A DNA stretch of 64,000 bases from Escherichia coli (GTDB lineage: Bacteria > Pseudomonadota > Gammaproteobacteria > Enterobacterales > Enterobacteriaceae), in NCBI RefSeq assembly GCF_048403405.1, contig NZ_CP183129.1. The stretch is one strand, 5' to 3'. The position numbers and the translations under genes were made by a program. Under the pieces are notes generated by a model. It was not told the origin of the DNA and did not search any database. It saw only the letters and a list, made by a program, of their open reading frames with translations. Below are positions 25,757 through 29,928 of the stretch, piece by piece (the first letter of the stretch is position 1; every line of letters begins with the position of its first letter).

Positions 25757-26554
25757 ATGTCAGCAGGACAAAGGAAGGAGCAAAAGTTGATACCCGTAGA
25801 GCGTCGCCAAATCATCCTTGAGATGGTAGCTGAAAAAGGCATTGTCAGTATTGCTGAACTAACGGACAGAATGAATGTGTCACATATGACCATTCGTCGG
25901 GATTTACAAAAACTGGAGCAGCAGGGAGCCGTTGTGCTGGTGTCCGGAGGCGTCCAGTCTCCGGGACGCGTGGCGCATGAACCTTCTCATCAGGTAAAAA
26001 CTGCGCTGGCAATGACGCAAAAAGCGGCTATTGGCAAGCTGGCGGCAAGTCTTGTTCAGCCGGGAAGTTGTATCTATCTGGATGCGGGAACGACCACGCT
26101 AGCGATAGCACAGCATCTGATTCACATGGAGTCACTGACTGTGGTCACAAACGATTTCGTTATTGCGGACTACTTGCTCGACAACAGTAATTGCACAATT
26201 ATTCACACTGGCGGTGCAGTGTGTCGGGAAAACCGTTCCTGTGTCGGGGAAGCCGCTGCGACCATGCTGCGCAGCCTGATGATTGATCAGGCTTTTATTT
26301 CTGCATCGTCATGGAGTGTGCGGGGGATTTCTACGCCAGCGGAAGATAAAGTCACGGTGAAACGGGCGATTGCCAGTGCCAGCCGCCAGCGAGTTTTGGT
26401 CTGTGATGCGACGAAATATGGTCAGGTGGCGACATGGCTGGCGTTACCATTAAGCGAGTTTGATCAGATTATTACAGACGACGGTTTGCCGGAGAGTGCC
26501 AGTCGCGCGCTGGCGAAGCAGGATCTCTCTTTGCTGGTAGCGAAAAATGAATAA
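25757..26554 (+). CDS. ygbI: DeoR-family transcriptional regulator
   Basis: 265 aa from ATG 25757; an in-frame TTG at 25787 preceded by AGGAAGGAG is an alternative start. Divergent from ygbJ. Confidence 0.8.
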   Translation: MSAGQRKEQKLIPVERRQIILEMVAEKGIVSIAELTDRMNVSHMTIRRDLQKLEQQGAVVLVSGGVQSPGRVAHEPSHQVKTALAMTQKAAIGKLAASLVQPGSCIYLDAGTTTLAIAQHLIHMESLTVVTNDFVIADYLLDNSNCTIIHTGGAVCRENRSCVGEAAATMLRSLMIDQAFISASSWSVRGISTPAEDKVTVKRAIASASRQRVLVCDATKYGQVATWLALPLSEFDQIITDDGLPESASRALAKQDLSLLVAKNE

Positions 26555-26577
26555 TGGCCTGCAATAACACCGGGTTA

Positions 26578-26603
26578 CTCATGCTTCACAGAAGAAGCAT
26601 GAG
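26578..26603 (+). terminator. Hairpin downstream of ygbI (possible terminator)
   Basis: CTCATGCTTC / GAAGCATGAG 10-bp stem with 6-nt loop, then T-rich ACTACTTTATTTTA. Confidence 0.4.
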
Positions 26604-26604
26604 A

Positions 26605-27261
26605 CTACTTTATTTTATAAAATGACAGCCGCCCGCTTTTCGGCGATCCGGTATCAATATAAATCTGGTTTGCGAGCGTCTGAATGTTATCAAACATCAT
26701 ATGTCCAAATATAAAATAATCAGCGCCGTTTATTTGTTGTAACTCGCCATTAAGCGATTTCTGCACACGATCAACAGGCCAGAGTAGTTCTCTCTCCGCT
26801 ATTTCTTTGCCAAAGAGATATTCATTCCCCGGATAATCTGCATGTGCGATGACATATTTTATTATGTCGTTAGTGATTTCAATAATATGTGGAAGGCGAT
26901 GAAATTTCAGCAACAGATTTATTGCTTCTTGTTGTTCCGTCTCATTTAATTCAAAGAACCAGTCGCCGCCGCTGGCAAGCCACATATTTCCATCGCCAGT
27001 TTCGAATGCATCAAGCGCCATCGCTTCATGGTTGCCTTTAACCGATGTAAACCAGGGCTGGTTTAACAGGCGTAGTACGTTAAGACTCTCCGGCCCACGA
27101 TCAATATTATCGCCGACAGAAATAAGTAAGTCGGTTTCAGGGAAAAAAGAGAGTTGATGTAAGCGGGATTGTAATAATTGATAGTCACCATGAATATCAC
27201 CAACGGCCCATATATAACGATAGTGATGGGCATTAATTTTTTGATAGCGTGTAGATGGCAT
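26605..27261 (-). CDS. pphB: Serine/threonine protein phosphatase 2
   Basis: 218 aa ORF with metallophosphatase motifs (GDIHGD, GDNIDRG, GNHE). Confidence 0.9.
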   Translation of the reverse strand: MPSTRYQKINAHHYRYIWAVGDIHGDYQLLQSRLHQLSFFPETDLLISVGDNIDRGPESLNVLRLLNQPWFTSVKGNHEAMALDAFETGDGNMWLASGGDWFFELNETEQQEAINLLLKFHRLPHIIEITNDIIKYVIAHADYPGNEYLFGKEIAERELLWPVDRVQKSLNGELQQINGADYFIFGHMMFDNIQTLANQIYIDTGSPKSGRLSFYKIK

Positions 27262-27366
27262 GGTTTTACCCTGTAAAATAAGATTTCCTATTATACAGGG
27301 TGTTTTTATTTGATTCGTCAGTTGTCGTTAATATTCCCGATAGCAAAAGACTATCGGGAATTGTTA

Positions 27367-29928
27367 TTACACCAGACTCTTCAAGCGATAAATCCACTCC
27401 AGCGCCTGACGCGGAGTCAGTGAATCCGGGTCGAGGTTTTCCAGTGCCTCGACCGCAGGCGAAGTTTCTTCTGGTACGGACAGCAAAGACATCTGCGTGC
27501 CATCTACCTGCGTCGCGGCGGCATTCGGCGAAATGCTCTCCAGCTCACGCAGTTTCTGCCGCGCGCGTTTGATCACCTCTTTTGGCACGCCCGCAAGGGC
27601 TGCAACCGCCAGGCCGTAGCTTTTGCTCGCCGCGCCATCCTGCACGCTGTGCATAAAGGCAATGGTGTCGCCGTGCTCCAGTGCATCGAGATGCACGTTG
27701 GCGACGCCTTCCATTTTCTCCGGTAACTGGGTCAGCTCGAAATAGTGGGTGGCAAACAACGTCAACGCTTTAATCTTATTCGCCAGATTTTCCGCGCACG
27801 CCCACGCCAGCGACAGACCATCGTAAGTGGACGTCCCGCGCCCAATCTCATCCATCAGTACCAGACTGTACTCGGTGGCGTTATGTAAAATATTGGCGGT
27901 TTCGGTCATTTCCACCATAAAGGTTGAACGCCCGGATGCCAGATCATCCGCTGCCCCTACGCGGGTAAAGATGCGATCGATAGGTCCAATCTCGACTTTT
28001 TGTGCCGGTACATAGCTGCCGATGTAGGCCATCAGCGCAATCAGTGCGGTCTGGCGCATATAGGTACTTTTACCGCCCATATTCGGACCGGTAATGATCA
28101 ACATGCGACGCTGCGGCGACAGGTTCAGCGGGTTGGCGATAAACGGCTCATTCAGCACCTGTTCAACCACCGGATGGCGGCCTTCGGTGATGCGAATACC
28201 CGGTTTATCAATAAAGGTCGGGCAGGTGTAGTTCAGGGTATAGGCCCGTTCCGCCAGGTTCACCAGCACGTCGAGTTCCGCCAGTGCGCTCGCGCTCTGT
28301 TGCAACGCTTCCAGATGCGGCAACAGCAGGTCGAACAGCTCTTCATAAAGCTGTTTTTCCAGTGCCAGTGCTTTGCCTTTTGAAGTGAGAACTTTGTCTT
28401 CGTACTCTTTTAGCTCTGGAATAATGTAGCGCTCGGCGTTTTTCAGCGTCTGGCGACGCATGTAATTGATGGGTGCCAGATGGCTTTGTCCACGGCTGAT
28501 CTGAATGTAATAACCATGAACCGCGTTAAAGCCGACTTTCAGGGTGTCCAGGCCAGTACGTTCACGCTCGCGGACTTCCAGACGCTCCAGATAATCGGTC
28601 GCGCCGTCAGCCAGCGCGCGCCACTCATCCAGCTCTTCGTTATAGCCCGGTGCGATAACACCACCGTCGCGTACCAGCACCGGCGGTGTGTCGATGATTG
28701 CTCGCTCCAGCAGATCGCGCAGCTCGGCAAACTCGCCCATTTTTTCACGCAGCGCCTGTACCGGAGCGCTATCGACATTTTCTAACTGCGCGCGCAGCTC
28801 CGGCAGTTGCTGGAAAGCGTGACGCATACGGGCCAGATCGCGTGGGCGAGCAGTTCGTAAAGCCAGACGCGCCAGAATACGTTCCAGGTCGCCGACCTGA
28901 CGCAGTACCGGCTGCAGCTCGGCGGTGAAATCCTGCAATGCGCCAATAGTTTGCTGGCGCTCAAGCAAGACGCGGGTATCGCGCACTGGCATATGCAGCC
29001 AGCGTTTCAGCATACGGCTGCCCATCGGCGTGACGGTGCAGTCGAGCACAGAAGCCAGCGTATTTTCCGCACCGCCCGCCAGGTTCTGGGTAATTTCCAG
29101 GTTACGACGCGTCGCGGCATCCATAATGATGCTGTCCTGCTCACGTTCCATGGTGATAGAACGAATATGCGGCAGGGTCGTGCGTTGAGTATCTTTCGCA
29201 TACTGCAACAGACAACCGGCAGCACAAAGTCCGCGCGGCGCGTTCTCGACGCCAAAACCGACCAGATCGCGGGTGCCAAATTGCAGATTCAACTGCTGGC
29301 GCGCGGTGTCGATTTCAAACTCCCACAGCGGGCGACGGCGCAGTCCGCGACGACCTTCAATCAGCGACATCTCGGCGAAATTTTCTGCATACAACAGCTC
29401 TGCCGGATTAGTGCGTTGCAGCTCTGCCGCCATCGTTTCGCGGTCAGCCGGTTCGCTCAGGCGAAAACGACCGGAACTGATATCCAGCGTCGCGTAGCCG
29501 AAACCTTTGCTGTCCTGCCAGATAGCCGCCAGCAGGTTATCCTGACGCTCCTGCAACAGCGCTTCATCGCTGATGGTGCCCGGCGTAACGATACGCACAA
29601 CTTTGCGCTCAACCGGACCTTTGCTGGTCGCCGGATCGCCAATTTGTTCGCAGATGGCAACGGACTCGCCCTGATTCACCAGTTTGGCGAGGTAGTTTTC
29701 CACCGCATGGTAGGGGATCCCCGCCATCGGGATCGGCTCTCCCGCCGAAGCACCGCGTTTGGTCAGTGAAATATCCAGCAGTTGCGACGCGCGTTTTGCG
29801 TCGTCATAAAACAGTTCATAAAAATCACCCATCCGGTAAAACAGCAGGATCTCGGGATGCTGGGCTTTCAGCTTGAGATATTGCTGCATCATGGGCGTAT
29901 GGGCATCGAAATTTTCTATTGCACTCAT
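27367..29928 (-). CDS. mutS: DNA mismatch repair protein MutS
   Basis: 853 aa ORF starting [18 protein letters not shown] with Walker [10 protein letters not shown]. Confidence 0.97.

What the first reader, a model, noticed from the sequence alone, without database searches (positions are those of the whole stretch)
27268..27360. Plus-strand terminator-like hairpins in the pphB-mutS intergenic region
ACCCTGTA...TACAGGGT (27268-27301) followed by GTTTTTATTTG, and TTCCCGATAG...CTATCGGGAA (27334-27360) followed by TTGTTATT, both look like intrinsic terminators for plus-strand transcripts. The flanking genes are both on the minus strand. The first hairpin also leaves only 6 nt between itself and the pphB start codon, so it may gate pphB translation or stop antisense transcription.
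Basis: seen in the sequence. Interest (0 to 1): 0.3.

Follow-up and report, generated by a model that had tools for sequence, protein, structure and literature searches.

The report
Sense-strand hairpins ending the mutS message
The two hairpins between mutS and pphB are real, but published E. coli K-12 transcript maps and sequence comparison indicate they act in the RNA of the gene strand (the mutS message ends at the foot of one of them) rather than as terminators for the opposite strand, which makes this an ordinary feature.

Summary
Observation confirmed. Both inverted repeats sit exactly where stated in the 105-nt E. coli mutS–pphB spacer. They fold far better than shuffled sequence and have T-rich runs on the + strand.

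Interpretation only partly supported. Both folds are more stable as minus-strand (sense) RNA: four pair positions are G·U on the sense strand and A·C on the other, against one the other way.

In K-12, whose spacer differs at 2 of 105 positions, SMRT-Cappable-seq puts the 3' end of full-length mutS transcripts at 2859753. That is window 27268(−), the last base of hairpin 1. It also lists a mutS-pphB co-transcript. A ±bicyclomycin data set puts a sense-strand Rho-termination peak at 2859755. I found no + strand 3' end in the one Term-seq table I could read.

Non-homologous variants of this junction each carry their own hairpin 5–12 nt after the mutS stop. The + strand T-tail of hairpin 2 is absent in E. 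albertii.

Hairpin 1 also holds a TATAAT box, conserved upstream of pphB in unrelated contexts, and the pphB ribosome-binding site.

Best reading: hairpin 1 is the 3'-terminal protective stem-loop of a Rho-terminated mutS mRNA. It probably also blocks pphB translation on read-through RNA. Hairpin 2 is a mutS-proximal stem-loop. Low interest.

The parts
27367..27369 (-). mutS stop codon (TAA). Hairpin 2 begins 5 nt downstream on the sense strand.
   Evidence: ORF list, sequence, annotation of identical or near-identical E. coli records.
27333..27361 (-). Hairpin 2. Sense RNA is AUUCCCGAUAG(U) CUUUU (G)CUAUCGGGAAU, 11 Watson-Crick pairs plus a closing U·G. It is the first structure after the mutS stop codon. 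Sense tail AUAUUAACG is U-poor; + strand tail UGUUAUUA overlaps the mutS stop and last codons.
   Evidence: Folds (−17.6 sense, −15.8 antisense). Stem invariant in 10 E. coli sequences, with variation only at the loop-closing position (U·G to C-G). There is one compensatory U-A to A-U change and one U·G in E. albertii. Non-homologous hairpins occupy the same position in other lineages.
27326..27331 (-). TTAACG, the −35-like hexamer of the promoter predicted by Shimada et al. 2014 for the mutS>pphB spacer (TTAACG-17-TAAAAA).
   Evidence: PMC3946193 table, matched to the sequence. The paper reports RpoD holoenzyme binding to this spacer in vitro and flags H-NS there. The hexamer assignment is their prediction.
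27303..27308 (-). TAAAAA within the A-rich tract CAAATAAAAAC. It is the predicted −10 of the Shimada promoter. Read on the + strand, the same bases are the T-tract (GTTTTTATTTG) behind hairpin 1.
   Evidence: The A-tract is conserved in E. albertii.
27268..27301 (-). Hairpin 1. Sense RNA is ACCCUGUA-U-AAUAGG AAAU CUUAUU-U-UACAGGGU, 14 pairs including one G·U and a 1x1 internal loop. It is followed by AAAACC-AUG with no U-tract.
   Evidence: Folds (−17.2 sense, −14.0 antisense). Stems are invariant in 10 E. coli sequences while the fourth loop base is T, G or A. The hairpin is weakened in E. albertii (−7.9).
27290..27295 (-). Perfect TATAAT inside hairpin 1 (end of the 5' outer arm through the start of the inner arm). 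It is the likely −10 of pphB's own promoter, with a predicted start near 27283±2 (−), which would leave the 5' arm untranscribed.
   Evidence: Sequence. A TATAAT 28-31 nt upstream of the pphB ATG recurs in otherwise non-homologous upstream regions that lack the hairpin: E. marmotae L092, E. coli L003 (TGGTATAAT) and metagenome L095 (TGTTATAAT). The transcription start is not mapped.
27269..27272 (-). pphB Shine-Dalgarno core AGGG, 7 nt before the ATG and buried in the 3' arm of hairpin 1.
   Evidence: Sequence. The probability of being unpaired is 0.00 in read-through RNA. Transcripts that start after TATAAT have only a weak −4.1 kcal/mol long-range helix at this site.
27264..27268 (-). Mapped 3' end of full-length mutS mRNA in K-12. 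The TTS is 2859753, which is window 27268. Because the four following bases are A and reads were poly(A)-trimmed, the true end lies within 27268-27264. The Rho-score peak 2859755 corresponds to window 27266.
   Evidence: PMC6131387 Supplementary Data 1, Rich_TTS sheet: TSS 2857024, TTS 2859753; 246 reads at the TSS, 23 at the TTS, 10 passing through, 4 ending within 50 bp, median read-through 375 nt. PMC7815308 supplementary file 2. Coordinates checked.
27228..27267 (-). C-rich, G-poor stretch directly downstream of hairpin 1 on the sense strand, covering the first codons of pphB. It is a candidate Rho-loading (rut) region.
   Evidence: 12 C against 3 G in the first 40 nt. That it is a rut site is inferred, not shown.
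27259..27261 (-). pphB start codon.

Best explanation
Both hairpins work as RNA on the minus (sense) strand, inside transcripts that start at the mutS promoter.

RNA polymerase reads through hairpin 2, which lies 5 nt after the mutS stop and has no usable U-tract in E. coli, and then through hairpin 1. It enters the AT-rich pphB gene, where Rho terminates it diffusely. 3'-to-5' exonucleases trim the tail back to hairpin 1, which becomes the stable 3' terminus of mutS mRNA. Hairpin 2 is a second mutS-proximal stem-loop: a back-up barrier or weak terminator, and the main one in E. albertii.

On read-through RNA, hairpin 1 also buries the pphB Shine-Dalgarno sequence. pphB is then not translated from mutS transcripts, which leaves the C-rich start of pphB free for Rho.

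pphB's own promoter has its −10 (TATAAT) inside the hairpin. Its transcripts would therefore lack the 5' arm and be translatable.

Shown: the structures, their conservation, the K-12 sense-strand 3' end, the bicyclomycin sensitivity and the mutS-pphB co-transcript. Inferred: exonucleolytic trimming, the rut site, translational occlusion, and the pphB transcription start.
For: Sense-strand 3' end of mutS transcripts at K-12 2859753, the last base of hairpin 1. The K-12 spacer differs from the window at only 2 of 105 positions, one in the hairpin 1 loop and one between the hairpins.

10 of 37 reads that reach the site pass through it, with a median read-through of 375 nt. This places their ends inside the 657-nt pphB gene. 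A mutS-pphB operon variant is also listed.

A Rho-termination region peaks at 2859755(+). Coverage downstream rises from 39 to 172 with bicyclomycin, while coverage upstream stays at 71 and 69 (p 2.7e-10).

The hairpin is stable, is not followed by U's on the sense strand, and is followed by 12 C against 3 G in 40 nt. This matches the architecture Dar & Sorek 2018 describe for Rho-dependent transcripts.

Sense folds are more stable than antisense folds in E. coli, E. albertii, Superficieibacter and Citrobacter werkmanii. The named structure pairs in 99.0% of cells on the sense alignment and 91.8% on the antisense alignment.

All 7 variable sites in the spacer among 9 E. coli sequences fall outside the stems, 2 of them in loops.

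Non-homologous hairpins sit 5-12 nt after the mutS stop in every junction variant examined. In 54 of 80 gammaproteobacterial loci a hairpin of −12 kcal/mol or better starts within 40 nt of the stop.

The Shine-Dalgarno sequence is fully paired only in read-through RNA. The TATAAT box is conserved in unrelated pphB upstream regions. RpoD holoenzyme binds the spacer and H-NS is flagged there.
Against: All transcript evidence is from K-12, not from this strain, and rests on 23 reads in one condition (rich medium).

Term-seq in Adams et al. did not call a mutS 3' end at all.

With bicyclomycin, downstream coverage (172) exceeds upstream coverage (69). Part of the Rho effect must therefore act on transcripts that start at or after the spacer, or reflect de-silencing of pphB, rather than on mutS read-through alone.

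No pphB-only transcription start was found in the data sets I could read.

Hairpin 1 is much weaker in E. albertii (−7.9), so its role is not conserved beyond E. coli.

Covariation is minimal: one compensatory pair, with 61 of 500 shuffles doing as well. One E. albertii pair is compatible only with the antisense RNA.

Both T-tracts lie on the + strand in E. coli. This model has to explain them away as promoter A-tract and mutS coding sequence.
Confidence: 0.6

Rival explanations
1. Both hairpins are intrinsic (Rho-independent) terminators for + strand transcripts. They stop ygbI read-through, or antisense RNAs that start inside pphB, before these run antisense into mutS.
For: In E. coli the T-rich tails are on the + strand: GTTTTTATTT after hairpin 1 and TGTTATTA after hairpin 2 (tail scores 2.83 and 2.27, against 0.03 and 1.03 on the − strand). 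The pattern scan calls hairpin 2 on the + strand. Plus-strand transcription antisense to pphB exists and rises about tenfold downstream (23 to 225) when Rho is inhibited, so a back-up terminator would have something to stop. The A/T-tract next to hairpin 1 is also conserved in E. albertii.
Against: No + strand gene ends here. No + strand 3' end is listed at these positions in the curated Term-seq tables I could read. Antisense transcripts are already Rho-terminated about 460 nt upstream of hairpin 1. The + strand folds are the weaker ones, and four pair positions are A·C mismatches on that strand. Hairpin 2's + strand tail consists of the mutS stop and last codons and is lost in E. albertii (tail score 0.39, against 2.43 on the sense strand). 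Hairpin 1 on the + strand is only −5.7 kcal/mol in E. albertii. Every alternative junction type keeps a hairpin positioned relative to the mutS stop.
Confidence: 0.15
2. Hairpin 1 is mainly a translational control element of pphB. It would be an SD-sequestering 5'-UTR hairpin, possibly temperature- or factor-responsive, and the mutS 3' end at its foot would be incidental.
For: AGGG lies 7 nt before the ATG in the 3' arm and is fully paired. The hairpin ends 6 nt from the ATG. The stems are invariant across E. coli while the loop varies. From my own knowledge, PrpB/PphB was described in the response to misfolded envelope proteins (Missiakas & Raina 1997).
Against: The hairpin is present only in RNA that starts upstream of it: mutS read-through, or the predicted TAAAAA promoter, which would clip the 5' arm. 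The conserved TATAAT inside it predicts a pphB start that excludes the 5' arm. Other pphB lineages have no such hairpin and E. albertii has a weak one. There is no Rfam match.
Confidence: 0.2
3. The palindromes act on DNA rather than RNA. Hairpin 1's symmetry would be a by-product of the pphB promoter (a −10 box mirrored on both strands plus an A-tract or H-NS site), and hairpin 2 would be a dimeric regulator's binding site.
For: RpoD holoenzyme binding and an H-NS flag in this spacer. TATAAT lies within hairpin 1, with a mirrored + strand promoter-like hit (TTTACC-18-TATTAT). The spacer is 33% G+C. A compensatory change in a palindrome is also what a symmetric protein site would show.
Against: Arms of 11-14 bp with 4-7-nt loops are typical of RNA stems, not operators. 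The G·U positions are mismatches in a DNA palindrome. An RNA 3' end falls exactly at the stem foot. Non-homologous hairpins replace hairpin 2 at the same distance from the mutS stop in other lineages.
Confidence: 0.08

Closest known systems
[quoted passage not shown] The classical case, from my own knowledge, is trp t / trp t' (Mott, Galloway & Platt 1985).
   Same: A stable stem-loop not followed by U's on the sense strand. A steady-state 3' end immediately at its foot. Bicyclomycin-sensitive read-through. A C-rich, G-poor stretch just downstream.
   Different: Exonuclease dependence is untested here. The hairpin also overlaps the next gene's −10 box and Shine-Dalgarno sequence. Part of the bicyclomycin response must come from transcripts that do not originate at mutS.
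Canonical intrinsic (Rho-independent) terminators, including bidirectional ones shared by convergent genes. An example is the mutS/rpoS terminator seen in other Enterobacterales (L024, L032, L040, L045).
   Same: A hairpin plus a T-run. Hairpin 2 sits where other species have the mutS terminator, and in E. albertii it has a U-richer sense tail.
   Different: In E. coli the T-runs are on the strand with no gene to terminate, and the sense tails are U-poor. The mapped mutS 3' end is at hairpin 1, not hairpin 2, and lies at the stem foot rather than 7-9 nt into a U-tract.
Shine-Dalgarno-sequestering hairpins that uncouple a downstream gene from upstream read-through and so cause translation-dependent Rho polarity.
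   Same: The SD core sits in the 3' arm, the start codon is 6 nt away, and the downstream ORF is Rho-sensitive.
   Different: No translation data exist. Whether the pphB mRNA made from its own promoter contains the hairpin is unknown.

Membership tests
   −14.0 kcal/mol (hairpin 1) and −16.9 (hairpin 2), with z-scores −3.2 and −5.9. Both are weaker than the − strand folds.
   GUUUUUAUUU after hairpin 1 and UGUUAUUA after hairpin 2. The hairpin 2 tail is mutS coding and stop sequence and is not conserved in E. albertii.
   None is listed at K-12 28595xx-28598xx in the curated Term-seq tables of PMC7815308 or in the SMRT-Cappable-seq TTS table.
   The nearest + strand gene, ygbI, ends at 26554, about 700 nt upstream, and has its own hairpin at 26578-26603. 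Its read-through is Rho-terminated near 26804.
Protective 3' stem-loop of a Rho-dependent transcript (Dar & Sorek 2018) | Stable stem-loop not followed by a U-rich sequence | tested here: met
   Hairpin 1 sense fold is −17.2 kcal/mol, followed by AAAACCAUG; tail T-score 0.03.
Protective 3' stem-loop of a Rho-dependent transcript (Dar & Sorek 2018) | Precise steady-state 3' end immediately downstream of the stem | tested here: met
   K-12 TTS 2859753 is the last stem base. The true end lies 0-4 nt further because of poly(A) trimming. Data are from K-12, not this strain.
Protective 3' stem-loop of a Rho-dependent transcript (Dar & Sorek 2018) | Read-through increases when Rho is inhibited | tested here: met
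   Rho score 4.54 at 2859755(+), p 2.7e-10. Caveat: downstream coverage with bicyclomycin exceeds upstream coverage.
Protective 3' stem-loop of a Rho-dependent transcript (Dar & Sorek 2018) | C-rich, G-poor rut region just downstream | tested here: inconclusive
   12 C against 3 G in the first 40 nt, falling to 18 against 13 by 80 nt. This is composition only.
Protective 3' stem-loop of a Rho-dependent transcript (Dar & Sorek 2018) | 3' end created by PNPase / RNase II trimming | not testable with these tools
   Needs exonuclease mutants.
SD-sequestering 5'-UTR hairpin / RNA thermometer | Shine-Dalgarno sequence paired in a stem next to the start codon | tested here: met
   AGGG at 27269-27272 has P(unpaired) 0.00 in read-through RNA.
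SD-sequestering 5'-UTR hairpin / RNA thermometer | The whole hairpin lies within the gene's own mRNA | tested here: inconclusive
   True for the mutS-pphB co-transcript. The conserved TATAAT inside the hairpin predicts an own-promoter start that omits the 5' arm. No transcription start has been mapped.
SD-sequestering 5'-UTR hairpin / RNA thermometer | Match to a described thermometer or leader family | tested here: not met
   Rfam search at E ≤ 10 gives only two chance-level hits far below gathering scores.
Repetitive extragenic palindromes (REP/BIME and similar) | Many copies per genome | tested here: not met
   One copy in the window at up to 3 mismatches. Median of one place per E. coli genome.

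The most novel reading that the evidence does not exclude
Hairpin 1 is a three-way element that sorts transcripts by origin. RNA arriving from mutS contains both arms, so it folds, hides the pphB ribosome-binding site, is handed to Rho, and is trimmed back to give the stable mutS 3' end. RNA started at the −10 box embedded in the hairpin lacks the 5' arm and is translated. On the opposite strand, the same palindrome with its U-tract acts as an intrinsic terminator that shields mutS from antisense transcription when Rho fails.
Probability: 0.15. Interest if true: 0.4.

Novelty: new member of a known kind. Interest (0 to 1): 0.15.

Why it matters
The result adds a small piece of annotation. It defines the 3' end of the mismatch-repair gene's mRNA and suggests why pphB is insulated from mutS read-through, at a junction (mutS–rpoS region) that is polymorphic among Escherichia.

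It also serves as a caution for sequence-only reading. A hairpin next to a T-run can be a promoter A-tract, or coding sequence read backwards, while the hairpin functions on the other strand. It does not open or settle any larger question.

Tried and rejected
Rfam search of 26300-28300 at a permissive threshold returned nothing meaningful.

A d'Aubenton-Carafa-type terminator score, written from memory, was negative for every hairpin, including the ygbI/pphB hairpin used for comparison. I discarded the absolute score and used only stem energy and tail T-score.

Supplementary tables of several 3'-end or TSS studies were not held, or the papers themselves were not held: PMC9023263, PMC8848933, PMC12259150, PMC6061677, Thomason 2015 and Ju 2019.

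The held Cappable-seq supplements contain no entry at 28596xx-28601xx. I cannot tell whether the full TSS list is among the held files.

The search for E. coli genomes intermediate between the E. coli and E. albertii spacers found none; the best was 83% identical.

The comparison of sense and antisense stability over 80 mutS loci (43 against 26, Wilcoxon p 0.008) is biased, because I picked each hairpin on the sense strand. I do not use it as evidence for strandedness.

Covariation statistics on 8 distinct sequences are not significant (61/500 and 71/500 shuffles).

The small ORFs overlapping the spacer (43 aa on −, 90 and 37 aa on +) were not pursued. They overlap mutS or the hairpins, and nothing suggests they are genes.

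The REP/repeat-element idea was rejected because the hairpins are single-copy.

Full report
**Locus.** The window is E. coli. The 331 nt around the finding are 100% identical to strain 7/2 and 94.9% identical to K-12. On the minus strand, mutS (27367-29928) is followed by a 105-nt spacer (27262-27366) and then pphB (26605-27261). ygbI lies further left on the plus strand (25757-26554). The same spacer type is present in about 5200 of 5426 complete E. coli genomes, in single copy.

**Observation.** They fold far better than dinucleotide shuffles on either strand, with z-scores from −3.2 to −5.9. Among all 40-nt windows of the 64-kb window they lie at about the 1% tail on the minus strand, and at the 5.9% and 1.7% tails on the plus strand. 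This is despite the spacer being only 33% G+C. They are not repeats and match no Rfam family.

**Which strand: sequence evidence.** The T-runs are on the plus strand in E. coli. The tail T-score is 2.83 against 0.03 for hairpin 1 and 2.27 against 1.03 for hairpin 2. Everything else points the other way.
- The minus-strand RNA folds are the more stable ones: −17.2 against −14.0 for hairpin 1 and −17.6 against −15.8 for hairpin 2. The reason is that G·U pairs on the sense strand become A·C mismatches on the antisense strand.
- On an alignment of 10 E. coli-type spacers plus E. albertii, the named structure pairs in 99.0% of cells on the sense strand and 91.8% on the antisense strand. Four pair positions are compatible only with the sense RNA and one only with the antisense RNA.
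- Among 9 E. coli sequences, all 7 variable spacer sites avoid the stems. Two fall in the loops, and the fourth loop base of hairpin 1 is T, G or A.
- In E. albertii, hairpin 2 is retained with one compensatory U-A to A-U change and one U·G pair. There its T-rich tail is on the sense strand (2.43 against 0.39). The plus-strand tail of hairpin 2 in E. coli is therefore not a conserved feature. It consists of the mutS stop codon and last codons read backwards.
- Covariation is too sparse to be statistically significant (61 of 500 shuffles do as well).

**Position relative to mutS.** The mutS–pphB junction is polymorphic, and each variant has its own unrelated hairpin 5-12 nt after the mutS stop.
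- Strain EcPF15 has a TPR-repeat gene inserted and the hairpin ATGAGCCCCGA…TCGGGGCTCAT.
- Strain R32_14_1F and E. marmotae have a 177-aa ORF on the other strand and the hairpin CCCGACGGCA…TGCCGTCGGG.
- Superficieibacter and Citrobacter werkmanii have others again.
- In 54 of 80 gammaproteobacterial mutS loci, a hairpin of −12 kcal/mol or better starts within 40 nt of the stop. Often it is a canonical bidirectional terminator shared with a convergent rpoS.

What is conserved is a stem-loop tied to the end of mutS, which is a sense-strand feature.

**Published transcript maps (K-12).** The K-12 spacer differs from the window at 2 of 105 positions, neither in a stem.
- SMRT-Cappable-seq (Yan et al. 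2018, PMC6131387, Supplementary Data 1, rich medium) lists a transcript from the mutS start 2857024 to a termination site at 2859753 on the forward strand. It records 246 reads at the start, 23 at the 3' end, 10 passing through, 4 ending within 50 bp, and a median read-through of 375 nt.
- I checked the MG1655 coordinates and the base itself. Position 2859753 is the last T of …UACAGGGU, the foot of hairpin 1, which is window 27268 on the minus strand.
- The next four bases are A and the reads were poly(A)-trimmed, so the true end lies 0-4 nt further on.
- The same paper lists a mutS-pphB operon variant from the same start.
- Adams et al. 2021 (PMC7815308, supplementary file 2) list a Rho-termination region peaking at 2859755 on the forward strand. 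Coverage upstream and downstream is 71 and 39 without bicyclomycin, and 69 and 172 with it (p 2.7e-10). A second region at 2860217 on the reverse strand is antisense to pphB, with coverage 66 and 23 rising to 109 and 225. That position is window ~26804 on the plus strand, about 460 nt before hairpin 1.
- Their curated Term-seq tables contain no 3' end on either strand in this interval. mutS itself is also missing from them, so depth is limiting.
- Shimada et al. 2014 (PMC3946193) report RpoD holoenzyme binding in the mutS>pphB spacer, flag H-NS there, and predict the promoter TTAACG-17-TAAAAA.

**Mechanism.** Dar & Sorek 2018 showed that Rho-dependent E. coli transcripts end, at steady state, immediately after stable stem-loops that lack a U-tract. 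These loops protect against PNPase and RNase II, and rut sites lie just downstream. Hairpin 1 on the sense strand fits this architecture.
- The stem is stable (−17.2 kcal/mol).
- The tail is AAAACC.
- The mapped 3' end is at the stem foot.
- Read-through is bicyclomycin-sensitive.
- The next 40 nt contain 12 C against 3 G.

I therefore read hairpin 1 as the 3'-terminal protective stem-loop of mutS mRNA. Hairpin 2 is transcribed through in E. coli, because the mapped end lies beyond it, and I read it as a mutS-proximal secondary stem-loop. In E. albertii hairpin 2 is stronger (−20.9) and has a U-richer sense tail, while hairpin 1 is weak (−7.9). The division of labour between the two seems to have shifted between the species. 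Trimming by exonucleases and the rut assignment are inferences.

**pphB.** Hairpin 1 carries two pphB signals.
- The Shine-Dalgarno core AGGG (27269-27272) is in the 3' arm. It is predicted to be fully paired in read-through RNA. Transcripts that lack the 5' arm have only a weak −4 kcal/mol long-range helix there.
- A perfect TATAAT (27290-27295) lies inside the hairpin. A TATAAT 28-31 nt upstream of the pphB ATG recurs in three otherwise unrelated pphB upstream regions that have no such hairpin, and two of them have an extended −10. This argues that it is the real −10.

If so, pphB's own transcripts start near 27283 and omit the 5' arm, and only mutS read-through RNA forms the occluding hairpin. 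This would insulate pphB from mutS transcription and leave the untranslated pphB 5' region open to Rho.

This part is inferred. No pphB start site is mapped in the data I could read. The bicyclomycin response (172 downstream against 69 upstream) shows that some Rho-sensitive RNA arises at or after the spacer. That is consistent with an H-NS/Rho-silenced, AT-rich pphB (41% G+C against 57% for mutS).

A plus-strand terminator role is not excluded. Hairpin 1 plus GUUUUUAUUU is a respectable terminator pattern, and antisense RNA rises when Rho is inhibited. But there is no plus-strand gene to terminate and no plus-strand 3' end in the accessible tables. Antisense transcripts are stopped by Rho well before they reach the hairpins. 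The plus-strand folds are the weaker ones, and hairpin 2's plus-strand tail is not conserved. I give it about 0.15 as a primary function.

**Verdict.** The feature is real and ordinary: a new, undescribed instance of a known kind, with a mildly interesting overlap of a terminal hairpin with the next gene's −10 box and ribosome-binding site. Interest is about 0.15.

Noticed in passing
window 27262-27366; loci L002 (2011-3002), L003 (3109-3775), L092 (834-1500): The mutS–pphB junction is polymorphic in Escherichia. Most E. coli genomes have the 105-nt spacer. Some carry a TPR-repeat gene between mutS and pphB. Others, and E. marmotae, carry a 177-aa ORF of unknown function on the opposite strand. 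Each variant has a different hairpin just after the mutS stop.
   Followed up: partly
window 26578-26603: A 10-bp hairpin (CTCATGCTTC…GAAGCATGAG) lies in the 50-nt gap between the convergent genes ygbI (+) and pphB (−). It is a candidate shared 3'-end structure. Its T-tails are weak on both strands.
   Followed up: no
window ~26804 (+), equal to K-12 2860217 (−): A published Rho-termination region antisense to pphB (Adams et al. 2021). ygbI read-through into pphB antisense is Rho-terminated, and downstream coverage rises about tenfold with bicyclomycin.
   Followed up: partly
window 27265-27294 (+): A plus-strand promoter-like match, TTTACC-18-TATTAT, mirrors the minus-strand TATAAT inside hairpin 1. 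This raises the possibility of a symmetric or bidirectional −10 element.
   Followed up: no
window 26605-27261: pphB is AT-rich (41% G+C) compared with mutS (57%) and the window as a whole (53%). A genomic SELEX study flags the spacer as H-NS-associated. This is consistent with a horizontally acquired, silenced gene.
   Followed up: partly
loci L024, L026, L032, L040, L045 (about 20-60 nt after the mutS stop): In several other Enterobacterales, mutS is directly convergent with rpoS and the two share one canonical bidirectional terminator (A-run, GC stem, T-run). This is probably the ancestral arrangement, into which the E. coli mutS–rpoS segment was inserted.
   Followed up: no
loci L013 and L029, 25-100 nt after the mutS stop: G+C-rich palindromic elements resembling repetitive extragenic sequences (CCCCTC…GGGGAGAGGG) follow mutS in an unnamed Enterobacteriaceae isolate and in Serratia silvae.
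   Followed up: no
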